Shown in pieces: positions 50,740-64,000 of a DNA stretch of 64,000 nt. Under the pieces are notes generated by a model that searched no databases, was not told the DNA's origin, and saw only the letters and a list, made by a program, of their open reading frames with translations. Both the position numbers and the translations under genes were made by a program. Where the stretch lies: NCBI GenBank assembly GCA_023444045.1, contig JAEZRQ010000001.1:2000-65999 (forward strand), in the 5' to 3' direction. The DNA is from Candidatus Parcubacteria bacterium. GTDB lineage: Bacteria > Patescibacteriota > Patescibacteriia > Patescibacteriales > UBA12465. Position 1 is the stretch's first letter. Each line of letters begins with the position of its first letter.

Positions 50740-52146
50740 ATGTCTTACGATCAAATTTGGCAGGCCGCTTTAGGCGAAATAGAAGTTAATCTATCGCGGG
50801 CTAATTTTATTACTTGGTTTAAAAATACTTTTGTGTCCTTGGTTGAAAATGGCCAGGTAACTGTTTGTGTTCCAAACTCTTTTATCCAAAAATGGCTTGA
50901 AGAAAAATATCACAAGACAATTTTAAGCGCCCTAGAAAATGTTTTAAAACAAAAAGTAATTATTGTTTATAAAGTAGAAGTTAGAAACAACGGCAACCAA
51001 ACAATTATTAACGATAAAAATAGTCACTTAGTTGGCTCATTAAAAGAGAAGTCTCTTACTCCAGAAAATAATAGCAGAGTGGAAGAAAAAAATAACCAAC
51101 CAATTAAGGGGAGTGAAAATAAATTTGGTTTAAATTCTAAGTATGTTTTTGAAAATTTTATTGTAGGAAAAAACAATGAGCTAGCTTATGCCGCCTGTTG
51201 GGCAGTGGTTAATAATTTAGGAAAGGCTTATAACCCTTTATTTATTTATGGTGGGGTAGGGCTAGGAAAAACTCACTTACTACAAGCCATAGGTAATGAG
51301 GTGTCAAAAAAAACTGATCGTATTCTTTATACCACCTCTGAAAAATTTACTAATAATTATATTCAGGCTGTACACTCCGGAAAAGCAAAAGAGTTTAAAA
51401 ATCTTTATCGCAATGTTGATCTCTTTTTAATTGACGATGTTCAATTCATGGGTGGAAAAGATGGTACTCAACAAGAATTTTTTCATACTTTTAACGAACT
51501 ACAACAAGGAGACAAGCAGATTGTCCTAACTTCTGACAGACCACCAAAATCTCTCCCCGCTATTGAGGCTCGTCTAATTTCTCGTTTTGAGTCTGGTATG
51601 GTAGCTGACGTTGGTAAACCGGATATGGAAACCAAAATTGCTATTTTAGAAAAAAAATCAATTGAAAAAGGTTTTCCGTTAAGTTCTGAAATAATAAACC
51701 TACTTGCTAAAAGCGTCCAAAATAATATTAGGGAGCTTGAAGGTGTTTTAAATAAAATTATTGCCGTACACCAAATTAAAAACATCCCCGTAAGCGAGAG
51801 AAGTGTTAAAGAAATTCTGTCTGATTTTATTGCTAATACCCAAACAAAATCTTTGTCTAATAAAGAGGTTATTGATGCTGTTTGTCGTTTTTATGATATT
51901 AGCTCTAAAGATTTAATCGGTAACAGCCGCAAAAAAGAGCTTGTTTGGCCAAGACAAATTGCTATTTATTTAATGAGGGAAGAAGTTAAATCATCCTATC
52001 CTAATATTGGTCATGAAATAGGGGGCAGGGATCACACCACCGCGATGCATGCTTACAATAAAGTTAGCCGAGAAATAAATGAGAATGAAAATGAAAAAAT
52101 AAAACAAGAGTTGGTTTCTATTAAACAACTATTTAACAGTTTATAA
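50740..52146 (+). CDS. dnaA: Chromosomal replication initiator DnaA
   Basis: AAA+ GGVGLGKTHLLQA, LIDDVQF, domain IV (RKKELVWPRQIAIYLMRE...GGRDHTTAMHA). Confidence 0.95.
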   Translation: MSYDQIWQAALGEIEVNLSRANFITWFKNTFVSLVENGQVTVCVPNSFIQKWLEEKYHKTILSALENVLKQKVIIVYKVEVRNNGNQTIINDKNSHLVGSLKEKSLTPENNSRVEEKNNQPIKGSENKFGLNSKYVFENFIVGKNNELAYAACWAVVNNLGKAYNPLFIYGGVGLGKTHLLQAIGNEVSKKTDRILYTTSEKFTNNYIQAVHSGKAKEFKNLYRNVDLFLIDDVQFMGGKDGTQQEFFHTFNELQQGDKQIVLTSDRPPKSLPAIEARLISRFESGMVADVGKPDMETKIAILEKKSIEKGFPLSSEIINLLAKSVQNNIRELEGVLNKIIAVHQIKNIPVSERSVKEILSDFIANTQTKSLSNKEVIDAVCRFYDISSKDLIGNSRKKELVWPRQIAIYLMREEVKSSYPNIGHEIGGRDHTTAMHAYNKVSREINENENEKIKQELVSIKQLFNSL

Positions 52147-52394
52147 CTTGTTAATAAGTAGTTAATAACTAATGAGATCCTGTTAATTAAATTGTGTATT
52201 AAACCTTAAACCTTTGTTAATAAAAAAAGTTGTTAACTTTTAAAACACTTTTACCACACAGCAATTTAAGATTTAATCAACAGAAAAAAATCGGTATTAT
52301 TTTTTAGAGTAAGCCAAAAAATAGCAATAACAATAACTTATACACCCCCTTATTATTGTTATTATTTATATAAATATATATTAAATAATATAAT
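52147..52394. other. Candidate oriC (dnaA-dnaN intergenic region)
   Basis: Five same-orientation (T/A)GTTAAYWW motifs at 52149, 52160, 52181, 52215 and 52231. Their reverse complement, e.g. TTATTAACA, matches the DnaA-box consensus TTATCCACA at up to 7 of 9 positions. A ~55-bp almost pure A/T tract follows at 52340-52394. Confidence 0.55.
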
Positions 52395-53522
52395 ATGAAA
52401 TTAATTAGTGTTCAGGAAAATTTAAAAAAGGGACTACTGACTGTAAGTCATGGAACTGGTAAAAATATTAACTTACCAATTCTTAATAATATTTTAATAA
52501 AGGCTTATAACAACTCTATTGAGCTTATTAGCACTAATTTAGAAATCGGCATTATTTATAAATTAAGAGGTAAGGTTGAAAGAGAGGGTGAATTTACGGT
52601 TGATTCAAAAATTATTACCGAATATGTTAATTTGCTTCCAAGTGAAAACGTGGAGATAGAAGAAATAGGCGGTGAACTTAAAGTAGAGTGTGGTACTTAT
52701 AAAACAAAAATTAAAGGAGAGGCATCAAAAGAGTTCCCTCTTATACCATCAGTTTCTCAAGAAAATTGTTATTCTTGTTCAATAGTTGAATTTAGAAAAG
52801 CTTTAAATAGTGTTTCTTTTGCAGTTTCAAATAGTGAAAATAGGATTGAGTTATCAGGAGTTTTATTTAATTTTGAGGATGAAAAATTAACTCTAGTTGC
52901 AACTGATAGTTATCGTTTAGCTGAAAAAACTATTAATACTAAAACAGAGAATAGTTTTATTAATCAAAAGTTAATTGTCCCCTCTAGAACTGTTCAAGAA
53001 CTTTTAAGAATTTTAAATAATTATAATAATGAGGATGGTGATTTTGAACAAAAAAGTGATGTTAAAATAGCTGTTTCTGATAATCAAATTTTGTTTTTAG
53101 TTGATTCTGTGGAACTTGTTTCCAGATTAATTAATGGTCAATACCCAGATTATCAACAAATTATTCCTGATAAAAGTAAAACAGAGGTGGTGGTAAGTAA
53201 GGCAAACCTTCTAAGAGCAGTAAAAGCGGTAGCAATTTTCTCTAAAACAGGAATTAATGACGTTAACTTAGAATTTAAAGATAATAAGATTATAATATCT
53301 GCTTCATCTGGACAGAGCGGAGAAAGTAGGGCGGACATTGAAGCGGATATTAGTGGCATTGATAATGAAATAGCAATTAACTTCCGGTACTTAGTTGATG
53401 GTTTAAATAATATTAATGCTGATAAAGTACGTTTAAAAATTGTTAGTACTAACACCCCTTGTATTTTAGTGGCCGAACCACAAGATGAATATCTTTATGT
53501 TGTAATGCCAATTAGGCAATAA
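52395..53522 (+). CDS. dnaN: DNA polymerase III beta sliding clamp
   Basis: Three-domain 375-aa protein (LVATDSYRLA, RLINGQYPDYQQIIP, MPIRQ C-terminus) and synteny. Confidence 0.93.
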   Translation: MKLISVQENLKKGLLTVSHGTGKNINLPILNNILIKAYNNSIELISTNLEIGIIYKLRGKVEREGEFTVDSKIITEYVNLLPSENVEIEEIGGELKVECGTYKTKIKGEASKEFPLIPSVSQENCYSCSIVEFRKALNSVSFAVSNSENRIELSGVLFNFEDEKLTLVATDSYRLAEKTINTKTENSFINQKLIVPSRTVQELLRILNNYNNEDGDFEQKSDVKIAVSDNQILFLVDSVELVSRLINGQYPDYQQIIPDKSKTEVVVSKANLLRAVKAVAIFSKTGINDVNLEFKDNKIIISASSGQSGESRADIEADISGIDNEIAINFRYLVDGLNNINADKVRLKIVSTNTPCILVAEPQDEYLYVVMPIRQ

Positions 53523-53555: not shown

Positions 53556-55898
53556 CTATTCTAAAATTAAATCTTCGGGAAAAATATCACTTTCATCTTT
53601 ATTGTTTAAAGCGTCTAATTCTTCTGGTGTTAAAAATTCACTTGGAAAATTTTCCTCAGCATCAATAGCAATAGTTGAAGAAGAAACTACTTGGTGATTT
53701 TTTTTAGCCCACTCTAAAACCGCCGCTTCCCAGGTAGAAAATTGAGGGTCGTTTTCTGGATTTTCAGGAGTTGGTCCAAGAGGATTATCTTTATCCACAA
53801 AATATAAGATAGAATGGTGATCATATATTTCTTTATATTTTACAAATTCAGTTGGGGTGTTAGCGCTTGCTGGCATATCAGAACGACTATCAAAAGCAGT
53901 TTTGCCTAGTGGTGATAAAACACCATCTAAAATATTTTTCCCTGTTTTAGTCTCTTCAGCTTCTTTAAATGATTCAACTGGAGTGCCTTGTAGAACTCTG
54001 TTCATGTATTCTTTCCAAATTGGTCCCGCTAAAACACTGCCATCAGCCCCTCTTTTCATTGAGTGATTATCAGTATTACCAACCCAAACACCGGTTACTA
54101 AAGATGGGGTGTAGCCAATAATCCAAGCATCTTTATAATCATTAGTGGTTCCGGTTTTAGCAGCGGCTGGGCGATCATTTAGGGTTAAGTTATTTTTCTC
54201 ACCAAAAATATAAGAACGAGCAGCATTATCTGATAAAATACTATTAATAAAGCGAGCTGTTTTTTGGGTTATTACATTTCGGCTATTAACTTTAGCTTCT
54301 TCTAAAATATTACCATCTCTATCCTCAACTTTTAGAACAGAAATTAAATCACTAACCTGTCCATCTCTAGCAAAAGCGCTGTAAGCATTGGTGTGTTCAA
54401 GTAACTTTACCTCACCACCACCTAAAACTAAAGATAAACCCAACCCCTTTTCATTTAGTGATGAATAACCAAGAGCGTGAGCCAGATCAATTACATTACT
54501 AACTCCAGTTAAGTAAAGTGCTTTAACAGCTGGAATATTTAATGATCCTGCTAAGGCTTTACGAATTGTAACTGGACCATTTTCTTTTAAATTATAATTT
54601 TTTGGAATATAAGGATCAGCTGGGTTGGTGGAAAAATTAGTCACTACATCATATAAAATAGTGTCTGGGGTGTAACCTTTTTCAAATAAAGAGGCAAAAA
54701 CAATTGGTTTCATGGATGAGCCTGGTTGTCTTAAGCTGGTGCTAACATTTACCTGACCAGCAATTTCTTTATTAAAGAAATCACGTGAGCCAATCATTGC
54801 TAAAATTTCCCCATTTTTTGGATCAACAGAAACTAGGGAAGCATTATTAGCATCATATTTAGTTTCATAATCTTTAATTTTTTCTATTAACACCTCTTCA
54901 GCAATTTTTTGTTTGTAATAATCTAAGGTGGTGTAAATTTTGAGCCCCCCTTGTTCTAATGTTTTTTCGCCATACTTCTCAGACATTAAACTTTTTATAT
55001 ACATCACAAAATGAGGGGCAATAATGCTAGATTCTGGCTTTTGAAAAATTATTTCTGCTTCTTTTGCTTGGTCTCTTTCCTCGGCTGATATATATCCCTG
55101 TTCATTCATTAAATCCAAGATGTAATCTTTTCTCCCCATTAAGATATCAAGATTTGGTCCGTAAGGAGAGTAGCGACTTGGAGATTGTGGTAGAGCCGCT
55201 AGAACAGCCGCCTCAGCGATATTTATCTCTTTTACGCTCTTACCAAAGTACTTGTAACTAGCCGCCTCTACACCGTAAGCATTTGACCCATAAGGAATCT
55301 CGTTAAGATACATTTGTAAAATTTCATCCTTAGAAAACTTTTTTTCTATTTGTTGGGCTAAGATAAGTTCCTTTACTTTTCTAGTAATAGATTTTTCGTT
55401 TGTTAAAATAGCGTTTTTAATAAACTGCTGAGTTAAGGTTGAGCCGCCAGCGGAACGGCGATAGATAACATTAGTTACCATTGTTCTAGCCATTGCCCAA
55501 ACACTAAAACCACCATGCTTATAAAAGTTTTTATCTTCAATGGCAATAGTAGCGTTTCTAACATGCATTGGAATTTCATCTAAAGAAACCAAAGTTCTCT
55601 TTTCATCACCATGTATTTCATAAAGAACATGTTCGCCACTGCGATCATAAATCTTGGTGCTTTGGGCTATTTCCCGATCAATTAACTGGTTTGGGTTTGG
55701 CAAATCGCGACTAATTATAATTATTCCAATAAAAGATAATAACGCAAAAAAGGCAATAAAAATTGTCAGTAAGGCTAATATTCTTTTTCGGTTAAACCAA
55801 ATTTTTTCCCAAAAAGTTTTCTTTTTAGGTGGTTTTTTCCAGGCTCTCATCGCTTCCTGGGTAAAGGTACTCTTTTTTCTAAGTTGAGGAATTGGCAT
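53556..55898 (-). CDS. Bifunctional class A penicillin-binding protein (PBP1A-type transglycosylase/transpeptidase)
   Basis: GT51 motifs (EDKNFYKHGG, GGSTLTQQ, RKVKE), transpeptidase SSMKP (SxxK) and KTGTT. Acidic C-terminal extension. Confidence 0.9.
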   Translation of the reverse strand: MPIPQLRKKSTFTQEAMRAWKKPPKKKTFWEKIWFNRKRILALLTIFIAFFALLSFIGIIIISRDLPNPNQLIDREIAQSTKIYDRSGEHVLYEIHGDEKRTLVSLDEIPMHVRNATIAIEDKNFYKHGGFSVWAMARTMVTNVIYRRSAGGSTLTQQFIKNAILTNEKSITRKVKELILAQQIEKKFSKDEILQMYLNEIPYGSNAYGVEAASYKYFGKSVKEINIAEAAVLAALPQSPSRYSPYGPNLDILMGRKDYILDLMNEQGYISAEERDQAKEAEIIFQKPESSIIAPHFVMYIKSLMSEKYGEKTLEQGGLKIYTTLDYYKQKIAEEVLIEKIKDYETKYDANNASLVSVDPKNGEILAMIGSRDFFNKEIAGQVNVSTSLRQPGSSMKPIVFASLFEKGYTPDTILYDVVTNFSTNPADPYIPKNYNLKENGPVTIRKALAGSLNIPAVKALYLTGVSNVIDLAHALGYSSLNEKGLGLSLVLGGGEVKLLEHTNAYSAFARDGQVSDLISVLKVEDRDGNILEEAKVNSRNVITQKTARFINSILSDNAARSYIFGEKNNLTLNDRPAAAKTGTTNDYKDAWIIGYTPSLVTGVWVGNTDNHSMKRGADGSVLAGPIWKEYMNRVLQGTPVESFKEAEETKTGKNILDGVLSPLGKTAFDSRSDMPASANTPTEFVKYKEIYDHHSILYFVDKDNPLGPTPENPENDPQFSTWEAAVLEWAKKNHQVVSSSTIAIDAEENFPSEFLTPEELDALNNKDESDIFPEDLILE

Positions 55899-55979
55899 AT
55901 TTGTTTATTTTTTTATATAGTATAGCATAAATTGCCTTCTTTCTGTAGACAAAACAATTCTTGTGATATAATAAGGCTT

Positions 55980-56759
55980 ATGGAAATAATTTCAAGTGAA
56001 CAAAATCAAAAAATAAAAAACCTGATCAAGCTCAGAGAAAAAAGCCGCGATCGTAAAAAATTAGGTCTTTTTGTGGTTGATGGCCTACGAGAGATAAAAG
56101 AAGTGATTGCCGGTGGTTTTGTAATTGAAGAGCTTTTTATTTGTTCTAATTTTTTTAAAAAAGAGCTTGATTTTAAAGTAGAAAAGATAGTTAATGTTTC
56201 AGATTTGGTTTATAAAAAAATATCATACAAAGAAAAACCAGAGGGAATCTTAGCTCTAGTAAAAACCCAAACAAAAAATATTGATGAGATAAAACTTGAC
56301 CAGAATTCATTAATTTTAGTTTTAGAGGCGGTAGAAAAACCAGGTAATTTAGGGGCAATTATTAGAAGTGCTTATGCTGTTGGAGTTGATTTAATAATTA
56401 TTAACGATGAGCAAACTGATATCTATAACCCCAATGTAATTAGAGCTAGCGAAGGCTTACTCTTTAAAATTCCTATAATATCATCTAATTTTAAAGAAAC
56501 TCAGAAGTTTTTAGATAAAAATAAAATAAAAACCGTCGCCACATCGCTTGGTGGAGGTAAAAATCATACTGAGATTAATTATCAAGAAGCGGTGGCTATT
56601 ATTTTAGGAACAGAATCAAACGGTTTAAGTGGTAAGTGGCTAAAAGCGGCTAATGAAGTTGTTAACATTCCAATGAAACCCGGAATAGACTCCTTAAACG
56701 TGTCTGTTTCAGCGGCTATTTTAATTTTTGAAGCTTGGCGGCAAAGAGGCTTTAGATAA
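55980..56759 (+). CDS. SpoU/TrmH-family RNA 2'-O-methyltransferase
   Basis: PGNLGAIIRSA, IPMKPGIDSLNVSVSAAILIFE. Start placed at ATG 55980, 7 nt after TGaTATAAT. Confidence 0.85.
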   Translation: MEIISSEQNQKIKNLIKLREKSRDRKKLGLFVVDGLREIKEVIAGGFVIEELFICSNFFKKELDFKVEKIVNVSDLVYKKISYKEKPEGILALVKTQTKNIDEIKLDQNSLILVLEAVEKPGNLGAIIRSAYAVGVDLIIINDEQTDIYNPNVIRASEGLLFKIPIISSNFKETQKFLDKNKIKTVATSLGGGKNHTEINYQEAVAIILGTESNGLSGKWLKAANEVVNIPMKPGIDSLNVSVSAAILIFEAWRQRGFR

Positions 56760-56803
56760 TTGACTTAAAGTCCCTTATCTTGTAGAATCTAAAAAGTAAA
56801 TTT

Positions 56804-56875
56804 GCGCCCATAGTTCAATGGATAGAACACCAGCCTTCTAAGCTGGTTATGGGGGTTCGATTCCCTCTGGGCGTA
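56804..56875 (+). tRNA. tRNA-Arg (anticodon UCU)
   Basis: Acceptor GCGCCCA/TGGGCGT, anticodon loop CTTCTAA, T arm GGGGGTTCGATTCCCTC. Confidence 0.9.
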
Positions 56876-56896
56876 CTTATAATTAATTTTAATTTT

Positions 56897-57034
56897 ATGG
56901 AAAATAATAATGATAAGCCGTTAACTGAGGAAGAAATTGCTCAGATGGATGCTTTATTTGGCTTTGGTGGTTGTAATTGCAGTACCTGTGATCATGGTTG
57001 TCATGACGAGGCTGAAGAAGGAGAAGACAAATAA
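56897..57034 (+). CDS. Possible 45-aa acidic Cys/His-rich peptide
   Basis: MENNNDKPLTEEEIAQMDALFGFGGCNCSTCDHGCHDEAEEGEDK. The track ORF start at 56849 overlaps tRNA-Arg, so the internal ATG is used. No SD is seen. Confidence 0.3.
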   Translation: MENNNDKPLTEEEIAQMDALFGFGGCNCSTCDHGCHDEAEEGEDK

Positions 57035-57054
57035 TCAGAATATTTTAGAATAAT

Positions 57055-57129
57055 GGTGCCTATGGTGTAGTGGTAACACAGCAGGTTGTGGTCCTGTTAT
57101 TTCGGGTTCGATTCCCGATAGGCACCCCA
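57055..57129 (+). tRNA. tRNA-His (anticodon GUG) with encoded G-1 and CCA
   Basis: G-1 followed by GTGCCTA/TAGGCAC, C73, CCA; anticodon loop TTGTGGT. A terminator hairpin acgag-tttaaaag-ctcgt plus T-run follows at ~57139-57163. Confidence 0.92.
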
Positions 57130-58574
57130 TTTTGAAAAGACGAGTTTAAAAGCTCGTTTTTTCTGTTATATAAGGGTAAAAATGAGGTTTGCCAGTCTAA
57201 ATTTACCCCTGACGGGAATATTTTGATAGTTTTTATCATTTTTTTAATAAGATTAGCCTTATTTTCGTGGTTTGCCACTTTATAGGCATAAGCGGGATTT
57301 GATAGTAGTTTTGTAAGCTCCTCAATTTTACTAAATGAGGTTTCGTTAGTCCTTTGAAAGTCTTTTATTTGAGAATCAAGGGCACTCTTTTCAAGAATAA
57401 ATTGCTTCTTTTTTTCTTCATAAACATCTTTATCAATCGTTCCTTCTAAAAGATGGTCAGTTAGCTTGCTTAATTTATCATTACAACTAATCACTCTAAG
57501 ATTTAAACTCTGATTCATTTTTTCAAGCTCAAAGACATAAGATTTTTTTAAGTCTTTAGCAATTTTTAATAGTTGGGCGGTTTCTTCTTTATCAAATTTA
57601 ATTTTATCAATTTCATTTAATAATATATCTTCAACTGTGTTCTCAGAGTAGCTTTTTGCTCCACAAGCTTTATTGCGACAATAGTAATATGGATATTTGT
57701 GTTTAGCGGTCATTGATTTTAATGTTTGTCCACATAAACCACAAGTTAAGATGTGTTTAAATTTATAATCGTTTTTATGAGTATGAGGAGTAAATCTTCT
57801 TTGTAAAACATCTTGAACTTTTTTGAATAATTTATCAGAAACAATTGCGGGATGTAGTCCAATATTAAGTTTGCCTTTTATGTCAATGATGCCCATATAG
57901 TATTTATCATTTAAGATTCTACTGATTTTTGTATACTCAATTCTTTTGTTGTTATAGGTTCTCAGACCCTTCTTATACATTTCATCAGCTAGCTCATGAA
58001 GAGTGTATTTACCAGTAGCATATAAATCAAAACATTTTTTAATTAAAGGTGCTGTTATTGGGTCAAGTTCTCTCATGCCAATTCCAGATTTTTTATATCC
58101 TAATAAAACTCTTCCAAAAACTGTATAACCAAGCTCTGCTTTTTTGTTCATACCCTTTTTAGTCTCCTGTGATAAATTAGCAATAAAATCTTCAGCCATT
58201 ACAGCTTTCATAGTACAGGTTAATGAGCCACCTCTACTGTTTAAGTCTGAACCATCACGACTAAAACAAATATTATAACCAGCATTTGATAGCTCTTTTA
58301 TTTTTGCCCAGTCGCTAATAGATCGGCAAGATCTATCTACGTCGTGAAAAATTATTCCCTTAACGCTTTTTGATTTTTTAATTTCCACTAGCATTAAACC
58401 GAACTGCTTTCGACCTTTTTTAGCAGCACTTTGTACTTCACGGAATTCTTTTACAATTTGAAACCCTCTTTCTTTTGCAAATTTTTGATTTGCTTCTTGT
58501 TGAGCTTCAAGGGAAGCCCCTGTTTCTGCTTGGTTTAGAGACGAAACTCTGTAATAGCTATAATATTTATCCAT
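57060..58574 (-). CDS. Large serine recombinase (integrase)
   Basis: N-terminal resolvase domain (YYRVSSLNQ catalytic Ser, HDVDRSCRS), recombinase domain, zinc ribbon (CGLCGQTL...YYYCRNKAC) and coiled coil. The last ~23 codons are antisense to tRNA-His. Confidence 0.85.
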   Translation of the reverse strand: MDKYYSYYRVSSLNQAETGASLEAQQEANQKFAKERGFQIVKEFREVQSAAKKGRKQFGLMLVEIKKSKSVKGIIFHDVDRSCRSISDWAKIKELSNAGYNICFSRDGSDLNSRGGSLTCTMKAVMAEDFIANLSQETKKGMNKKAELGYTVFGRVLLGYKKSGIGMRELDPITAPLIKKCFDLYATGKYTLHELADEMYKKGLRTYNNKRIEYTKISRILNDKYYMGIIDIKGKLNIGLHPAIVSDKLFKKVQDVLQRRFTPHTHKNDYKFKHILTCGLCGQTLKSMTAKHKYPYYYCRNKACGAKSYSENTVEDILLNEIDKIKFDKEETAQLLKIAKDLKKSYVFELEKMNQSLNLRVISCNDKLSKLTDHLLEGTIDKDVYEEKKKQFILEKSALDSQIKDFQRTNETSFSKIEELTKLLSNPAYAYKVANHENKANLIKKMIKTIKIFPSGVNLDWQTSFLPLYNRKNELLNSSFQNGVPIGNRTRNNRTTTCCVTTTP

Positions 58575-58643
58575 ATATTTATAGGTGATTAAATAGGGAT
58601 TTATTTATCATATTTTAATTAGATTAATGACTACCTTAAAAAG

Positions 58644-59387
58644 CTATCGTAAAATCAACTCAACCGCTGACTGATATCTTTCACCCTTGTAAGAGATTAG
58701 ACCCTTTTTATAAATTGGATTACTTAAAATCTTTTTAATTGTTGATGGACTCCACTTCTCGTTTCCTCTCTTAGTCGGGATACTTAAATCCGTTAAAGTA
58801 TTAGCAATTATTTTTAGGGACTTCTTTTTTCTTTTTAGATTAAATATCAACATAATCGTTTTAGCTTCTTGTTGGTTAATTACTAAGTTGCCCTCATTGT
58901 TGTCATAACCATAAATTTTACCACCATGCCAACCACCATTTTTAGCCTTTCTTTCTCTACCACCTTCAAGTCTTAAAGCGATCATTGCTCTTTCAAATTC
59001 AGAGAATACACCAAGCATTTGTCTAAACGCCTTTCTGAAAGGATCGCTACTGTCTAAATCAGGCTCAAGAGCTGAAATTAATTGCTTCTCATTTTTATTA
59101 AACTCTTTTATCAAACCCTCTTGAATATATAAATCTCTTGCTAACCTATCTAACTTATAGATGATTATATGTTCCGCTTCTGTGTTGTTTAATAAATCAA
59201 GAAGATTTTTTAATCCTGGTCTATCGCTTAATCCACCACTGAACCCATCATCTGAAAATTCTTCAATAATCAGGTATTCATTTTTGATAGCAAATTCTCT
59301 GACCTTCATTTTTTGAACTTCAATTGTTCCTTCTTCTTTTTGAAGATCAGTTGATACACGATAATAGGCAAGTGCTTTTTTTGTCAT
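58644..59387 (-). CDS. Serine recombinase, short form (resolvase domain plus partial recombinase domain, no zinc ribbon)
   Basis: YYRVSTDLQ catalytic Ser, YKLDRLARD, FSEFERAMIALRLEGG, then WSPSTIKKILSNPIYKG, a recombinase-domain motif. Confidence 0.8.
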   Translation of the reverse strand: MTKKALAYYRVSTDLQKEEGTIEVQKMKVREFAIKNEYLIIEEFSDDGFSGGLSDRPGLKNLLDLLNNTEAEHIIIYKLDRLARDLYIQEGLIKEFNKNEKQLISALEPDLDSSDPFRKAFRQMLGVFSEFERAMIALRLEGGRERKAKNGGWHGGKIYGYDNNEGNLVINQQEAKTIMLIFNLKRKKKSLKIIANTLTDLSIPTKRGNEKWSPSTIKKILSNPIYKKGLISYKGERYQSAVELILR

Positions 59388-59540
59388 AGATTTTTGATTA
59401 GGGATGATTAGAAATGCTTATAATATAAGACGCAAATCAAAAAATCTAAATGTCTCAATAATAAATCGTGTAGCTATACAGGAAAAATATACGTGGTAAT
59501 TCTGTTTTTTAGTTTTTTATAACCCTTATATATTAAAAAT

Positions 59541-60722
59541 CTAAAAAGCAGAATTTATAGTATAGAATTTCTTATTTTTTTCTTTTGTCTCTACTATTAT
59601 TTTTTGTTCGTTCTCAAGAGTTTTTAAAATCTTTAACAAGACATTTTTTCCAATAGTTCCTTGAAATTGTTTACTTAAATCCTCTTGAGTTATTGGAGAA
59701 TCACTTTCTTCTATAAAAGACAGAACAGAATCTTGTTGATGTAGTGTTTTAATTTGTTGGTTATGAGTATCTTCAGAATAACCTTTAAAAACAAAATTTA
59801 ATTTATCTTCTTCTTGGGTTGGAGAAATAATAAATGGTTTGAGTTCTGGTTGGATGCGATTTTTTGTTTGGTTAATTATTAAATCATTACCAACTCTTTT
59901 TATCATCATCTGACATTCTAGTGCGGCTAAAATATCAACAGAGCCACGCATCATTTGATTGCCATAATTTTGATTATCTTGACCCTTTCGATTATGGTGA
60001 TTTATAAGAACCGTTATTCCTTTTTCTTTTAATACAGATATTTTACGGAACAAACTCGACATATCTTTAGCACTATTTTCATCACCAGAGTGAATTCTAA
60101 TTAAACTATCAATAATAAGAACTTTAATTTTTCTTCTTGTTAATTCGCTTAATAACATTTCGATATTTTCATAGTTATCAGCCATAAAACCAGTCATAAT
60201 ACTAAAACTAAGATTGGTATCTCCGTCATCTCCTAATTTAATCAACCTGTCTTTTATTAATTTGTCTGAATCCTCTTCATCGATTATTAAGACATTTGAT
60301 TTTTTTACGTTAAAAACGCCGAAGACGGGCTCACCTTTAGAAATACATAAAGCAAAATATAAAGTTAGCCAAGTTTTAAAACTCCCTGGTTTTGCAGAAA
60401 GAATGTTTATTGATCCTTCTGGTAAGATGTCTTGTATAATCCAATCTTGATGTATATCAGATGTTATTAATGTTTTACTAGACTGTATTTTAAGAGGATT
60501 ATTTTTTGCGTTTAATTTTAATATCCTTTTTCTATTTTTAATTTCTTGTCTGACTAATTGTTTTAAAGCACCCATTTTTAGCGGGCTATTAATTGCTTGA
60601 TTTAATCCTTTTAAATATCTAACAACTGTTTTAAAATCAGTATTATCAACCAAATCAATAACATGAGGAATAATTTTTTTAATATCCATATTATTAAGAC
60701 TTAAAATATTTATTAATAGCAT
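59541..60722 (-). CDS. RepA/AAA_25-like RecA-fold ATPase with C-terminal winged-helix (replication or mobilisation protein)
   Basis: P-loop-like SAKPGSFKT, VLIIDSLIRIHSGDENSAKDM (Walker B region typical of the RepA/KaiC-like fold), NHHNRKG. An alternative start lies at 60689. Confidence 0.6.
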   Translation of the reverse strand: MLLINILSLNNMDIKKIIPHVIDLVDNTDFKTVVRYLKGLNQAINSPLKMGALKQLVRQEIKNRKRILKLNAKNNPLKIQSSKTLITSDIHQDWIIQDILPEGSINILSAKPGSFKTWLTLYFALCISKGEPVFGVFNVKKSNVLIIDEEDSDKLIKDRLIKLGDDGDTNLSFSIMTGFMADNYENIEMLLSELTRRKIKVLIIDSLIRIHSGDENSAKDMSSLFRKISVLKEKGITVLINHHNRKGQDNQNYGNQMMRGSVDILAALECQMMIKRVGNDLIINQTKNRIQPELKPFIISPTQEEDKLNFVFKGYSEDTHNQQIKTLHQQDSVLSFIEESDSPITQEDLSKQFQGTIGKNVLLKILKTLENEQKIIVETKEKNKKFYTINSAF

Positions 60723-60930
60723 CTTTAGCTATTTCGTGGGCATAAAAAATATCATCCTCAACTGGACAGTAAAAATCTCTATCAATTGTTCGGTACTCTT
60801 TTTTATGATCAAGTTTGATAAAGATCATATAGTTGTGAGGAATTTTTGTTATTGAGTAGTTTTTACTATCAAATAACAAAATACCAATTCTTTTTTGTCT
60901 TGCTCTTTCAAGCGCTTGTAGTTTGTTCAT
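60694..60930 (-). CDS. Hypothetical protein (78 aa) of the mobile element
   Basis: ORF only. Positioned directly upstream of the ATPase. Confidence 0.4.
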   Translation of the reverse strand: MNKLQALERARQKRIGILLFDSKNYSITKIPHNYMIFIKLDHKKEYRTIDRDFYCPVEDDIFYAHEIAKDAINKYFKS

Positions 60931-60939
60931 AGGTTTTGC

Positions 60940-61023
60940 GGGTTAATTAGATAATTTTATTGCTCGAAAATATCCAAGATTATCTCGACATATTCTATGA
61001 GGTTTTGATTATCTAATTTACCC
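60940..61023. repeat. 16-bp inverted repeat pair flanking a 52-bp spacer
   Basis: gggttaattagataat (60940-60955) versus the reverse complement of attatctaatttaccc (61008-61023), 15/16 match. Each arm is preceded by aggttttg. Confidence 0.7.
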
Positions 61024-61096
61024 ATAAAAAAATAGACTTAATTTCTTAAGTCTATTTTAACGAGTTTCAATATTGATACCGTGACATTTGTTGGTG

Positions 61097-61858
61097 TTAA
61101 CAAATGTTTGATATTTTATCTTTAAATCTTTTTTTTCTTTGTCTTAAAGTTGAGAGAGATTTGTTTTTTACTTTTTTATTATCATCAAGATTAAAAACGT
61201 CTAATGCGTCATAACCATCTAATTTATCCTGATATACCTCTTTATCTTTACTATAAAGTTTACTTGCTCTGTCCCTTCCTTTTTTATAATTGTTCATATT
61301 CTTTTGAAAGAAATTCATGACAGATAATAACTCTTCCACATCTTTTTTTGTCGCATTTGGTCCACACCTTATTACCATATTCCCATATCGATCCCTCGTT
61401 AATTGAGCTTCTTTTGTTTCGGGAATAAATAAGTTGTTAAATAGAATATAATGGACAATTCCCGGGAATGGTTTTTCATTTATTAAATGATAAAAAGTTC
61501 TTTCATTTTCTAAATAGTATAAATCAGTTGGATAATTATCATTAGTTTCAGGATCAGTTAAGCAATTATAAACCTTATTTAAAAATATACTTGGGTTAGT
61601 TTTTATTATTTTTGTATTTTTTATTGAAAGATCTTTAAAGTTATTAGCCTTATTATTTATTATCCATTCTTTAAAATCCTTAGAGATAGTTTTGAATCCT
61701 TTTTTTGGTATAAGCCATTTGCTTCTTATTCGTTTAATATCCTCAATAAAAGAATCATTAAGAGTCACTTTTTCAAATAACTGTTCCATAGCACTTATTA
61801 CTGATTTATTGCGAATATTTATTTTTATATCATTGTCTTTATCCATATTTTTATCCAC
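61097..61858 (-). CDS. Hypothetical protein (253 aa) of the mobile element
   Basis: ORF with its own minus-strand terminator (~61031-61056). No motif recognised. Confidence 0.5.
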   Translation of the reverse strand: MDKNMDKDNDIKINIRNKSVISAMEQLFEKVTLNDSFIEDIKRIRSKWLIPKKGFKTISKDFKEWIINNKANNFKDLSIKNTKIIKTNPSIFLNKVYNCLTDPETNDNYPTDLYYLENERTFYHLINEKPFPGIVHYILFNNLFIPETKEAQLTRDRYGNMVIRCGPNATKKDVEELLSVMNFFQKNMNNYKKGRDRASKLYSKDKEVYQDKLDGYDALDVFNLDDNKKVKNKSLSTLRQRKKRFKDKISNIC

Positions 61859-61924
61859 TTCGTTAAAACGGAGTGTATGAATTAACTTATATTTATAGTT
61901 TAAAGCCTATAAAAATAAGCGTCA

Positions 61925-61953
61925 ATAAAAGAGGGTAACTGACTGATACCCTC
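61925..61953 (-). terminator. Intrinsic terminator after the four-gene cargo operon
   Basis: On the minus strand, gagggta-tcagtcagt-taccctc followed by ttttatt. Confidence 0.7.
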
Positions 61954-62012
61954 TCTTTCGGACTTACACAAAGTGTAAAATCGTTCTTAAGCTTCTTAGA
62001 GAATTTTGTGAA

Positions 62013-62387
62013 CTATCGATTTAAGCCATTTTTATATAAACATAAATTTAAACGAACATCCACTGCTTCCGCCTGATCTGTTGTGATGTTATTTTCCTTA
62101 GTCCAAGAAGAAACCTCGTAAGCACAATTTACTCTAATTTTTGTAGGTCTAGTGCTAAACCAATAAAAACAAAAACCCGAAATAAGAATAATAACTATAA
62201 ACAAAGAGATGCTAACTTTTTCTTGCTTCATATAATTTCGTAAAATAAGGATAATTAAAAAGCTTAATAAAATAGAGATAAAAATCATTTGTAGAATTTG
62301 ATTAGAAACAATCCAGTTAGCTAAAGGAGATAACTCATCGCCATTTAAAGCCACGCCTTTTATCAGTGTTTTAAAGAATAAAGACAT
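62013..62387 (-). CDS. Hypothetical membrane protein (124 aa, 2-3 TM)
   Basis: Hydrophobic segments. 1-nt gap to the upstream gene. Confidence 0.5.
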   Translation of the reverse strand: MSLFFKTLIKGVALNGDELSPLANWIVSNQILQMIFISILLSFLIILILRNYMKQEKVSISLFIVIILISGFCFYWFSTRPTKIRVNCAYEVSSWTKENNITTDQAEAVDVRLNLCLYKNGLNR

Positions 62388-62388
62388 A

Positions 62389-62658
62389 CTATTTTTTTGT
62401 TAAATTTATATAATTTAAGGCATTTGTTAAATTAGCAATTCCATTTTTAGCATATTCTTCTCCTTTTGTTTTTAGCCAATAATCACCAACATCTTTATAT
62501 CCTAATTTCTCAGCCATCAAGTTTACCTCTTTAATTAATAGAGTTGTTGTAATGTAAATAGAGGCGTCTCCTTGTCCCCTTGCTCTTCCTCCCCAAGAAG
62601 CTACAAAAATAGCGGTTATAATTGCCGTAATTATGGCTGTTAAAATAATAGGTAGCAT
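62389..62658 (-). CDS. Hypothetical N-terminally anchored protein (89 aa)
   Basis: TM with internal AIITAIITAI repeat, then a soluble region. Confidence 0.5.
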   Translation of the reverse strand: MLPIILTAIITAIITAIFVASWGGRARGQGDASIYITTTLLIKEVNLMAEKLGYKDVGDYWLKTKGEEYAKNGIANLTNALNYINLTKK

Positions 62659-62676
62659 AGTTTTATTAAATTTATT

Positions 62677-63363
62677 TTATAAATTATTTTTTATTACTTC
62701 TAAAATTTCTTGATTTGATAAATCGTCAATACCACATCCAGGAATTGATCCAAAAACATCTTTTATAAAAACAAAAATATAATCTGACCCAATAAGATCG
62801 CCAGATTCTTTTAATTCATAAATACTAAAAATTGCCTTGGTTTTAGATTGGTCCGGTTCTTTATTATTATTTTTTGTAATAATTAAAAATGTTTTATTAT
62901 TTGTTTGTGCTATTTTTAAAACTTTACCTCCATTGCACCCCATTATTTCACTAATTAAAAAATCTCTTTCAAAGTCTAAGATTTTTTTATCCTTATTTTC
63001 TTTAGTTACAATATTCCAATTACTACTCTTTTTGATAAAGAAATTATAAACATCAGTATTAGCGTTTGTGTGATAATCATAATAATCAGCCCCAACAATA
63101 TGAGAAACAAAGACGTTGTCATCAGTTCCATCAAAGTTTAAATCGATATAATTATTACCAGGAGCAAAAGAATATATTTTTATTTTGTCATCCTCTTGTT
63201 CTAATAACGCTTTAGAACTTGTTTTAGTTGGCTCAAATTGCTCTGGCTTATTTTGGATATCCTTTTTTTGATTTATTAAATAATATCCAAGAGAAGTTAT
63301 AAAAAATAAAACAATCAAGCCAATAAAAATTAAAAGATATTTTTTATTTATTTTTTCTGTCAT
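62677..63363 (-). CDS. Hypothetical N-terminally anchored extracytoplasmic protein (228 aa)
   Basis: One TM followed by a ~190-aa beta-rich domain containing a DLNFDGTDDNVF (calcium-binding-like) segment. Confidence 0.5.
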   Translation of the reverse strand: MTEKINKKYLLIFIGLIVLFFITSLGYYLINQKKDIQNKPEQFEPTKTSSKALLEQEDDKIKIYSFAPGNNYIDLNFDGTDDNVFVSHIVGADYYDYHTNANTDVYNFFIKKSSNWNIVTKENKDKKILDFERDFLISEIMGCNGGKVLKIAQTNNKTFLIITKNNNKEPDQSKTKAIFSIYELKESGDLIGSDYIFVFIKDVFGSIPGCGIDDLSNQEILEVIKNNL

Positions 63364-63782
63364 ATATTTTTAATTCTAGTTTCATTAAAGCTATTTATAT
63401 TATTTAAAATATCAGCGACAGAAACATTATTTTTTATTATCAACCAGTTTAATTTTGAAATTCTTGAATAAATATATTCAATTTCGTAAGAATTTTGATT
63501 TAAACCTTCTTTTAAATAAACAACAACGATATCATTTTTTAATTCAGATTCTTTTGTTCTGAAATCTTCTAACAAATTATCTCTACTTATAGATAAGTAG
63601 TCGTTAGGCATTATATGATGCTTAATAAAAATAATATCTTGACCGCTTTTTATAGCTTCAAGATATTTTTCTTCGTAATTATTTGGTTGAGTATTTTTGC
63701 TCACAATAAATGAGCTTGCCTTTGAGATGTCTTCAGCTAGATTTTTAATAGATTCTTCTTGTCCTATTAATAGTAAAATCAT
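63360..63782 (-). CDS. Hypothetical cytoplasmic protein (140 aa), first gene of the cargo operon
   Basis: ORF with a 4-nt overlap onto the next gene. No motif recognised. Confidence 0.5.
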   Translation of the reverse strand: MILLLIGQEESIKNLAEDISKASSFIVSKNTQPNNYEEKYLEAIKSGQDIIFIKHHIMPNDYLSISRDNLLEDFRTKESELKNDIVVVYLKEGLNQNSYEIEYIYSRISKLNWLIIKNNVSVADILNNINSFNETRIKNI

Positions 63783-64000
63783 ATTTAGCTAATTATAGCT
63801 TAATTATTATTACGCAAATTTTAAAAAGTAAATAGCTAAGCCGTATACAGTCCTATTTTCAAGAAAAACAGCTTAGCAATAGGGTAAGACATAAAACAGG
63901 GCAAACGGCTCAAATTTGACTGTATAGGCCGTGAATATGAGCTGATTTTAGATTATATAGAGGAAGATATCTCTTCCCAATAAAAAAACGGACACCCGAC

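What the first reader, a model, noticed from the sequence alone, without database searches (positions are those of the whole stretch)
57055..57215. Recombinase ORF reads antisense through the whole tRNA-His; a dyad-symmetric candidate att core lies just inside
The 504-aa recombinase frame does not stop at the end of the element. It continues through the tRNA-His terminator hairpin and the entire tRNA (57129 down to 57060), so its last ~23 residues (GVPIGNRTRNNRTTTCCVTTTP) are the complement of the tRNA. The C-terminus of the integrase therefore depends on the integrated state; the excised form would end differently. About 45-80 nt from the tRNA lies an inverted repeat aGGGTAAA-N21-TTTACCCc (57173-57209), of the size and symmetry expected for a large-serine-recombinase att half-site pair. 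The tctaa(a)tttaccc motif recurs in the inverted repeat at 61013-61023.
Basis: partly seen in the sequence, partly recalled or inferred. Interest (0 to 1): 0.55.

Follow-up and report, generated by a model that had tools for sequence, protein, structure and literature searches.

The report
Serine integrase gene overlapping tRNA-His

Summary
ORF 57060-58574(-) is an intact 504-aa large serine recombinase (LSR), and its last 22 codons are the antisense of tRNA-His(GTG) 57056-57129.

The att-core interpretation is wrong. Comparing nine related elements, a conspecific strain with a different element at the same site, and the far ends of five elements places the crossover in an 11-bp common core. 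[quoted passage not shown] The crossover most likely lies in the invariant ACCC(C) at 57124-57128.

The hairpin at 57134-57163 belongs to the element. It is an intrinsic terminator that the element supplies for the tRNA, and it is embedded antisense in the LSR's 3' coding region together with the P' half-site.

The 7-bp inverted repeat at 57174-57208 and the recurring motif at 61012 are at chance level, and the repeat is not conserved in the closest relatives.

The ORF crosses the junction, so the excised form would end ...GV(P/A)KRKGWKTFLMEYLVN* instead of running into the tRNA. The run-on looks passive: its length varies, the tail is predicted disordered, and two relatives stop earlier.

The unusual part is a Patescibacteria LSR clade, always paired with a short serine recombinase, that targets tRNA 3' ends as tyrosine integrases do.

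The parts
57056..57129 (+). tRNA-His(GTG), intact, with CCA encoded and G-1 at 57055. It is the integration target (attB) and now forms part of the tRNA-proximal hybrid att site.
   Evidence: ARAGORN. The same tRNA-Arg(tct)-tRNA-His pair flanks homologous recombinases in L003, L004, L006, L007, L010, L022, L023 and L028, and tRNA-His alone is seen next to them in L027 and L044.
57119..57129 (.). 11-bp common core and direct repeat TAGGCACCCCA (tRNA positions 66-76). It is the only sequence shared by the two ends of the element, so the crossover lies inside it.
   Evidence: Far-end copies lie next to the conserved P arm in L011, L002, L004, L006 and L010. Identity with a conspecific strain carrying a different element ends exactly at 57129. 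Repeat copies end exactly at 57119.
57124..57128 (.). Most likely crossover interval, the ACCCC of the core. This is an inference.
   Evidence: Far copies keep TA(G/A)CCAC whatever the host acceptor stem, while the hosts of L011 and L004 have TAGGCAC. Near copies carry element-type position 76 (T in L006 and L010, against A in their far copies). ACCC is invariant in 17 of the 17 copies listed.
57134..57163 (+). Element-borne intrinsic terminator for tRNA-His. On the opposite strand it encodes residues ~RKNELLNSSF of the recombinase tail, and it overlaps the predicted P' half-site.
   Evidence: Terminator scan and folding. Compensatory and synonymous stem changes occur in L006 and L010 (AATGAG...CTCATC). 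Relatives that target tRNA-His (L007, L015), tRNA-Glu (L029) and tRNA-Arg (L034) have analogous but unrelated hairpins.
57119..57197 (-). Conserved 'tail block': the core, the terminator, and the last ~25 codons after the WQTxF motif. It is constrained as DNA and is repeated twice more at the far end of the island, outside the window.
   Evidence: Copies at L011 2901-2972 and 3355-3433 (82-87% identity) and at L002 276-352 and 1446-1512. Divergence by codon position is 0.17/0.15/0.22 in the tail, against 0.22/0.18/0.50 in the catalytic domain.
57060..58574 (-). Large serine recombinase, 504 aa, the integrase of the element. The fold ends at about residue 465-473. Residues 476-504 are a disordered run-on through the terminator and the tRNA.
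   Evidence: Pfam. Invariant R9, S11, D80, R81 and R84 and four Cys (C278, C281, C299, C304). AlphaFold2 mean pLDDT 79, with pLDDT below 50 for 476-504.
57174..57208 (.). It is a chance dyad inside the coding sequence (...PSGVNLDWQTSFLP...), not an att core.
58644..59387 (-). Short serine recombinase, 247 aa, with a Resolvase domain and a partial Recombinase domain but no zinc ribbon or coiled coil. It is a conserved partner gene directly upstream of the large recombinase.
   Evidence: Pfam. It is present directly upstream in 11 related loci at 54-99% identity and is more conserved than the large recombinase.
59541..60722 (-). AAA_25 (RepA/KaiC-like) ATPase with a C-terminal winged helix. It is the probable replication or maintenance protein of the excised element.
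   Evidence: Pfam. It is conserved in L002, L003, L023, L010, L006, L028 and L008.
57130..64000 (.). Interior of the integrated element. It runs off the window. On the full contig the element ends 13,231 bp from 57119, at virtual window position ~70349.
   Evidence: On L011 (the same genome) the junctions are at 3433/3434 and 16664. No tyrosine integrase is among the called genes.

Best explanation
The window holds the tRNA-proximal end of a 13.2-kb integrative element of a Patescibacteria genome. The element is inserted by its large serine recombinase into the 3' end of tRNA-His(GTG).

Shown:
- attB and attP share an 11-bp core, the tRNA's last 11 nt (57119-57129).
- Everything to the right of 57129 is element DNA.
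- The far end of the element, beyond the window, repeats the core next to a strongly conserved P arm (..GCAAAAnTTGGAAAACTnTTTTGATGGAATATTT).
- The element carries its own replacement for the tRNA's 3' terminus and its own transcription terminator. Both lie, together with the predicted P' half-site, inside the 3' end of the recombinase gene on the opposite strand.

Inferred:
- The 2-bp crossover lies in the invariant ACCC(C) at 57124-57128.

Consequence:
- The recombinase gene has no stop codon inside the element, so translation ends wherever the adjoining DNA first offers a stop.
- In the integrated state that is after 22 antisense-tRNA codons.
- In the excised circle it would be after about 15-17 codons of the P arm.
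- The run-on through the tRNA is most likely a passive by-product of packing the att site, tRNA end and terminator into the end of the gene. It is probably not a functional domain.
For: 1. Family context. Of 34 homologues (40-89% identity), most share the tail WQTxFLxLYxRKNExxxSSFxxGV..GNRT. Their loci show the same convergent arrangement with tRNA-His. More distant members abut tRNA-Glu or tRNA-Arg in the same way.

2. Near boundary. Loci L015 and L016 come from a conspecific strain. They are 100% identical to the window over 55000-57129 and then carry a different element, whose 25%-identical recombinase also reads 33 nt into the tRNA.

3. Far boundary. The core plus a conserved P arm is found in L011 (twice), L002 (twice), L004, L006 and L010. 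In L004, L006 and L010 the host side shares only the 10-11-nt core, followed by an unrelated native terminator.

4. Element sizes are 7.4-13.2 kb, and the only recombinases on board are the two serine enzymes.

5. The tail is constrained as DNA rather than as protein. Codon-position divergence is flat.

6. The hairpin is a tRNA-sense terminator.

7. Evidence that the run-on is passive:
- The stop lies from 0 to 199 nt past the tRNA's 3' end among relatives.
- L044 stops inside the hairpin, and L027 stops just before the tRNA.
- Residues 476-504 have pLDDT below 50.

8. The catalytic Ser/Arg residues and the zinc-binding Cys residues are intact.
Against: - No excised circle (attP) and no empty attB was found, so the att sites are reconstructed rather than observed.
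- The position of the crossover inside the 11-bp core rests on seven polymorphic positions. It assumes these differences predate integration.
- Dyad-symmetry scoring of the reconstructed attP does not single out one centre.
- The recombinase frame stays open to the tRNA in 6 of 8 independent tail types, while both other frames always contain stops. A purely passive run-on does not predict this.
- The far-end units in this genome copy about 65 nt of the tail block, more than a half-site should need.
Confidence: 0.8

Rival explanations
1. The crossover lies 45-80 nt downstream of the tRNA, at the dyad GGGTAAA-N21-TTTACCC (57173-57209), and the hairpin and tRNA are host DNA beyond the end of the element.
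For: The dyad exists at the stated coordinates, and its size resembles a serine-integrase site.
Against: - The sequence from 57130 onward is element-specific in a conspecific comparison.
- The 57130-57197 block travels with the recombinase across hosts.
- Far ends repeat only the tRNA core.
- The dyad is not conserved and shows no compensatory changes in L002 or L003.
- Such dyads occur 0.2-1.5 times per 160 nt by chance.
Confidence: 0.02
2. The state-dependent C-terminus is a regulatory switch. The excised circle makes a recombinase with a defined 15-17-residue end (W-K/Q-T-F/I-L-M/L-E/D-Y...). The integrated copy makes a differently tailed or unstable protein. This would bias the reaction towards integration or excision, by analogy with integration-dependent immunity in mycobacteriophage BPs.
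For: - The frame is open to the junction in 6 of 8 independent tail types, although the other two frames always hold 1-4 stops.
- Reconstructed attP ORFs all end 15-17 codons into the P arm, with a similar peptide.
- Precedent for an attP inside a gene exists for a repressor (PMC3694055, PMC4557955).
Against: - L044 and L027 place stops before the core.
- Tail and P arm show no third-codon-position excess, so the conservation is explained by DNA sites.
- The tail is predicted disordered.
- Integrated-state ends vary from 0 to 66 extra codons.
Confidence: 0.12
3. The tRNA-His is cargo of the element, or the recombinase is a resident chromosomal enzyme unrelated to any insertion, and the overlap is a fixed chromosomal arrangement.
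For: The tRNA and the recombinase are adjacent in every related locus.
Against: - The tRNA-Arg-tRNA-His pair and its upstream genes stay 100% identical while the DNA after 57129 is swapped for another element in a conspecific strain.
- Core repeats bound 7-13-kb segments with variable cargo.
- Clade members use other tRNAs.
Confidence: 0.02
4. The recombinase mRNA ends at the hairpin, which has an A run before it and a short T run after it on the minus strand. The message would then lack a stop codon and the protein would be kept low by ribosome rescue and tagging. The open frame is selected for that reason. This rival is compatible with the best explanation.
For: The minus-strand hairpin folds at -9.4 kcal/mol, z = -3.3. 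No in-frame stop precedes the hairpin in any relative.
Against: - The scan calls a terminator only on the plus strand.
- The minus-strand T run is only 4 nt.
- L044 has its stop in the hairpin loop.
- No transcript data are available.
Confidence: 0.07

Closest known systems
Large serine recombinase integrases of phages and integrative elements (phiC31, Bxb1, TP901-1, A118/LI integrase type)
   Same: - Same domain order: resolvase catalytic domain, recombinase domain, zinc ribbon and a long coiled coil.
- Conserved catalytic Ser and Arg residues.
- The gene lies at the very edge of the element, next to the att site.
- There is only a short common core between the two ends.
   Different: - At most 30% identity to any annotated phage or plasmid recombinase. 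Only the catalytic domain matches solved structures by sequence.
- The target is the 3' end of a tRNA gene, which is rebuilt, rather than a protein-coding gene that is split. The reviews and database papers read here describe this as the behaviour of tyrosine integrases (PMC4383910, PMC5704250).
- The ORF has no stop inside the element.
- It is always paired with a short serine recombinase.
tRNA-targeting genomic islands of the Islander type, and tycheposons
   Same: - An intact tRNA gene, an island, and a repeated tRNA 3' fragment.
- The integrase gene is next to the tRNA.
- The element restores the tRNA end.
- Tandem accretion and remnants occur next to the tRNA, and replication genes are on board (bioRxiv 10.1101/2020.12.28.424599).
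   Different: - The integrase is a serine, not a tyrosine, recombinase. In tycheposons only 27 of 937 elements carry one.
- The repeat is only 11 bp.
- The host is a Patescibacteria lineage.
Integration-dependent immunity of mycobacteriophage BPs and relatives; SSV-type archaeal integrases whose gene is split by integration
   Same: attP lies inside an open reading frame, so the integrated and excised states encode proteins with different C-termini (PMC3694055, PMC4557955, PMC8371274).
   Different: - Here the gene that crosses attP is the serine integrase itself, and only its last 15-22 non-conserved or disordered residues change.
- No evidence was found of a degradation tag or of two functional forms.

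Membership tests
Large serine recombinase (serine integrase) | N-terminal resolvase-type catalytic domain with the nucleophilic Ser and conserved Arg residues | tested here: met
   PF00239, E = 2e-23, residues 5-149. R9, S11, D80, R81 and R84 are invariant in 34 homologues. The best PDB sequence matches, 3guv and 3bvp (TP901-1), cover the catalytic domain.
Large serine recombinase (serine integrase) | Recombinase domain, zinc-ribbon domain with four Cys, and an inserted coiled coil | tested here: met
   PF07508 at 172-260 and PF13408 at 272-322. C278, C281, C299 and C304 are invariant. The AlphaFold2 model has long helices at 329-377 and 382-414, followed by a closing beta-hairpin at 447-461.
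Large serine recombinase (serine integrase) | Recombination between short (~40-50 bp) attP and attB sites with a 2-bp staggered crossover | not testable with these tools
   Only the 11-bp common core and the conserved flanking arms were defined by comparison. Symmetry scoring was inconclusive.
tRNA-gene integrative island (Islander signature) | An intact tRNA gene at one end and a direct repeat of its 3' fragment at the other, with the integrase on board | tested here: met
   The 11-nt core is repeated at L011 3423-3433, 13.2 kb from 57119, and the same holds in L002, L004, L006 and L010. The far end lies outside the window.
tRNA-gene integrative island (Islander signature) | The integrase belongs to the tyrosine recombinase family | tested here: not met
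   No Phage_integrase domain is present in the element. The only recombinases are the two serine enzymes.
Integration-dependent switch (attP inside a gene giving two functional protein forms) | attP lies within the ORF | tested here: met
   The ORF has no stop before the core. The reconstructed attP ORF continues 15-17 codons into the P arm.
Integration-dependent switch (attP inside a gene giving two functional protein forms) | The alternative C-termini are under protein-level selection or confer different stability or activity | tested here: inconclusive
   For: the frame is open in 6 of 8 tail types. Against: flat codon-position divergence, a disordered tail, and early stops in L044 and L027. 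Stability and activity cannot be tested here.

The most novel reading that the evidence does not exclude
This Patescibacteria clade of serine integrases has placed attP, the replacement tRNA end and the tRNA terminator inside its own coding sequence. The gene is therefore completed differently in the excised and the integrated state. This state-dependent C-terminus, perhaps together with the invariably linked short serine recombinase, would set the direction of recombination. That would be an integration-dependent switch acting on the integrase itself.
Probability: 0.12. Interest if true: 0.75.

Novelty: new variant of a known kind. Interest (0 to 1): 0.45.

Why it matters
Serine integrases are the main tools for site-specific DNA insertion. 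They are generally described as splitting protein-coding genes, while tRNA targets are ascribed to tyrosine integrases (PMC4383910, PMC5704250).

This clade uses tRNA 3' ends (His, Glu, Arg), rebuilds the tRNA end and brings its own terminator. It comes with a defined 11-bp core and conserved arms. That gives concrete, testable attP/attB pairs for Patescibacteria, a phylum with very few genetic tools.

It also shows how strain-level cargo exchange happens next to the replication origin of these small genomes. In this species the cargo includes a type III restriction-modification module in one strain and conflict-system genes in another.

For annotation, it warns that the last 20-60 residues of such integrases are junction-dependent read-through.

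Tried and rejected
- **Displaced tRNA fragment inside the window.** I looked for one in the window and in L001. None is there because the far end lies 6.3 kb beyond the window. It was found only after fetching L011.
- **L005 as an excised attP form.** I first read L005 this way, because it diverges from L004 right after the core. I rejected this. Its right flank encodes host genes (MacB/FtsX, HlyD, GreA) and a decayed tRNA-His-like remnant.
- **Crossover at the acceptor/T-stem edge (57118/57119).** I first placed it there, where the repeats end. Near and far core polymorphisms argue for a position further 3', in ACCC(C).
- **Dyad-symmetry scoring of reconstructed attP and attB.** The best centre scored 52 of 120 matches and the alternatives scored 51, so this was inconclusive.
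- **Pattern search for an attP joint in viral contigs.** There were 0 hits. The only hits among the fetched loci are the tandem junctions.
- **Apparent disruption of the recombinase in L018.** This is a scaffold gap of Ns, not a mutation.
- **PDB sequence search.** It matched only the catalytic domain, so it could not define the end of the fold. The AlphaFold2 model was used instead.
- **Codon-position test on the P arm.** With seven sequences of 15 codons it gave 0.25/0.11/0.24, which is not decisive.
- **Caps.** No empty site could therefore be searched for by DNA pattern.
Full report
**What is in the sequence**

The ORF at 57060..58574 on the minus strand encodes 504 residues. It has the three Pfam domains of a large serine recombinase: Resolvase 5-149, Recombinase 172-260 and Zn_ribbon_recom 272-322. 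ARAGORN places tRNA-His(gtg) at 57056-57129 on the plus strand, preceded by tRNA-Arg(tct) at 56804-56876.

Reading the minus strand, the frame runs ...TCT TTT CAA AAT GGG GTG CCT ATC GGG AAT CGA ACC.... It continues to a TAG at 57060-57062.

Between the tRNA and the conserved part of the protein lies a 13-pair hairpin with a T run (57134-57163). It is scored as an intrinsic terminator on the tRNA strand, at -15 kcal/mol and z = -4.5.

**The tail travels with the recombinase**

A search returned 52 homologues. I aligned 34 of them, at 40-89% identity. Most continue past the nearly invariant W461..F465 with ..L.LY.RKNE...SSF..GV..GNRT... GNRT is the antisense of a T arm, and GV is the antisense of CACCCC, the tRNA-His 3' end.

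Nine genome loci, 17 metagenome loci and one further contig confirmed the arrangement. In L003, L004, L006, L007, L010, L022, L023, L027 and L044 the recombinase converges on tRNA-His(gtg), usually with tRNA-Arg(tct) behind it. More distant members abut tRNA-Glu(ttc) (L029, L031) or tRNA-Arg(gcg) (L034) in the same way. In 11 of the 14 loci tabulated, the stop lies inside or beyond the tRNA.

DNA alignment shows that the block from the tRNA end to about 57197 is better conserved than the rest of the gene. Divergence by codon position is 0.22/0.18/0.50 in the catalytic domain but 0.17/0.15/0.22 in residues 466-484. The tail is therefore held constant as DNA, not as protein.

The stem of the hairpin changes by paired substitutions that are also synonymous (ACGAG/CTCGT to ATGAG/CTCAT in L006 and L010). 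L007, L015, L029 and L034 have unrelated hairpins at the same place. The hairpin is therefore a terminator that the element supplies for the tRNA.

**Where the element ends**

Three lines of evidence agree.

1. L015 and L016 come from a conspecific strain. They are 100% identical to the window over 55000-57129 and unrelated from 57130 onward. There they carry a different element, with a type III methylase, an HI_1054-type helicase, and a recombinase only 25% identical to this one. That recombinase also reads 33 nt into the tRNA.

2. On the full contig of this genome (L011; window coordinate = 73783 minus L011 coordinate), two further direct copies of the 72-79-nt tail block lie at L011 2901-2972 and 3355-3433. 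Both end exactly at the position equivalent to 57119. L002 shows the same.

3. Every far end is followed by a strongly conserved arm, A..GCAAAA.TTGGAAAACT.TTTTGATGGAATATTT. It is found in L011 (twice), L002 (twice), L004, L006 and L010. In L004, L006 and L010 the host side of that junction shares only the 10-11-nt tRNA end with the recombinase side. It then continues into an unrelated native terminator.

The two ends of the element therefore share only TAGGCACCCCA (57119-57129). The element in this genome is 13,231 bp, from 57119 to virtual position ~70349, and runs off the window. The relatives measure 7.4-9.9 kb. No tyrosine integrase is on board.

A 460-nt unit at the far end is bounded by a P arm and a tail block and holds a single 99-aa membrane ORF. 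It looks like a non-autonomous or decayed element in tandem.

**Where in the core**

I first placed the crossover at the T-stem edge, where the repeats end. The table of near and far cores argues otherwise.

- Far copies read TA(G/A)CCAC or TAGCTAC whatever the host acceptor stem is. In L011 and L004 the host stem needs TAGGCAC, which only the near copy has.
- Close relatives sit in hosts with different stems (TAGGCAC, TAGCTAC, TGGGCAC).
- Positions 66-70 therefore seem to stay with the host.
- Position 76 of the near copy is of element type (T in L006 and L010, where the far copies have the A of CCA).

This brackets the exchange within ACCC(C), window 57124-57128, which is invariant in all copies. 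It is an inference that assumes the differences predate integration. Symmetry scoring of the reconstructed attP did not decide between centres.

The dyad lies 45-90 nt from the mapped core, inside the coding sequence.

- It is not conserved in the 89% and 74-79% relatives, and shows no compensatory changes.
- It has no folding signal.
- It is of a kind that occurs 0.2-1.5 times per 160 nt in this window.
- The motif shared with 61012 is at chance level: 39 of the 149 13-mers in the finding have a match within one edit elsewhere in the window.

**Does the state-dependent C-terminus matter?**

Joining the tail to the element's own P arm gives ...QNGV(P/A)KRKGWKTFLMEYLVN*. The other elements give similar 15-17-codon ends.

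Evidence that the run-on is passive:

- The integrated-state ends vary from 0 to 66 extra codons.
- L044 stops in the hairpin loop, and L027 stops just before the tRNA.
- AlphaFold2 gives a confident fold to about residue 465-473, and pLDDT below 50 for 476-504.
- Neither the tail nor the P arm shows a coding signature.

Evidence that leaves the question open:

- The recombinase frame is free of stops up to the junction in 6 of 8 independent tail types.
- Both other frames always contain 1-4 stops.

I put a functional switch at about 0.12.

**Comparison with what is known**

The enzyme is a member of the large serine recombinase family by all sequence criteria. It is at most 30% identical to any annotated phage or plasmid recombinase.

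Its behaviour is the one described for tyrosine integrases: integration in the 3' end of a tRNA gene, with restoration of that gene.

- The Islander paper states that serine integrases were not known to target tRNA genes (PMC4383910).
- A review of mobilizable elements describes serine-recombinase elements as disrupting genes and having very short repeats (PMC5704250).
- The tycheposon study found a large serine recombinase in only 27 of 937 tRNA-associated elements (bioRxiv 10.1101/2020.12.28.424599).
- An attP inside a gene is known for the repressor of mycobacteriophage BPs (PMC3694055, PMC4557955) and for split archaeal tyrosine integrase genes (PMC8371274).
- A full-text search found no paper on such elements in Patescibacteria.

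**Verdict**

This is a new variant of a known kind: a tRNA-targeting serine-integrase element whose att arm, tRNA end and terminator are embedded in the integrase gene.

Noticed in passing
58644-59387 (-): A 247-aa serine recombinase lacking the zinc ribbon and coiled coil lies directly upstream of the large recombinase. It does so here and in 11 related loci, including the tRNA-Glu-targeting ones. It is more conserved (54-99%) than the large enzyme. It may be a partner, a directionality factor or a multimer resolvase.
   Followed up: partly
L015 6249-12186 and L016 (conspecific strain; the junction corresponds to window 57129/57130): The same tRNA-His site in a strain with a 100% identical flank holds a different element. 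It carries a 496-aa recombinase (25% identity), a ResIII/HI_1054 helicase-like protein and a type III restriction-modification methylase. Two unrelated serine integrase lineages therefore use one site.
   Followed up: partly
L011 2901-3470 (virtual window ~70313-70882, beyond the window): Two att-like units in tandem, each made of tail block, core and P arm, enclose a 460-nt mini-element with one 99-aa membrane ORF. The repeated tail block is about 65 nt, longer than a half-site should need.
   Followed up: partly
L011 3477-9511 (virtual window ~64272-70306): The distal half of the element encodes DUF5677, DUF4236, DUF2326, MC6 and SMEK_N/CTD10 proteins, which look like conflict-system genes. 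The 3.65-kb SMEK_N-to-DUF2326 module is absent from the 89% relative L002.
   Followed up: no
60934-60955 and 61008-61029: A 22-nt inverted repeat (86% complementary, 52-nt spacer) lies in the intergenic region upstream of the 78-aa ORF and the AAA_25 gene. It may be an operator or an origin. Only its left arm falls in the block shared with L002.
   Followed up: partly
59541-60722 (-): An AAA_25 (RepA/KaiC-like) ATPase with a C-terminal winged helix is conserved across the element family, together with the 78-aa and 253-aa ORFs. This suggests the excised element replicates.
   Followed up: partly
56849-57034 (+): A small acidic, Cys/His-rich ORF (..GGCNCSTCDHGCHDEAEEGEDK) lies between tRNA-Arg and tRNA-His. 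Its listed start lies inside tRNA-Arg. It has no Pfam match and is identical in 11 contigs.
   Followed up: no
L005 4716-4800: A 90%-identical recombinase pair abuts a decayed tRNA-His-like remnant that ARAGORN does not call, followed by host transporter genes. The contig is binned as Gammaproteobacteria, so this may be a degenerate target copy or a mis-binned contig.
   Followed up: partly
L010 11458-11532: The tRNA-His next to this element has a G3-U70 wobble in the acceptor stem (5' GGTGGCTA, 3' TAGCTACC). The 3' strand in L002 reads the same, but its 5' strand lies off the contig. In L006, L010, L005 and L023 the near core ends CCCCT or CCCCC, so CCA is not fully encoded.
   Followed up: no
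50740-53522 (window equivalents of L001 15053-17835): The dnaA and dnaN genes lie about 4-6 kb from the tRNA-His site. The rpmH, rnpA, yidD and yidC genes lie just beyond dnaA. The integration hotspot is therefore close to the presumed replication origin.
   Followed up: no
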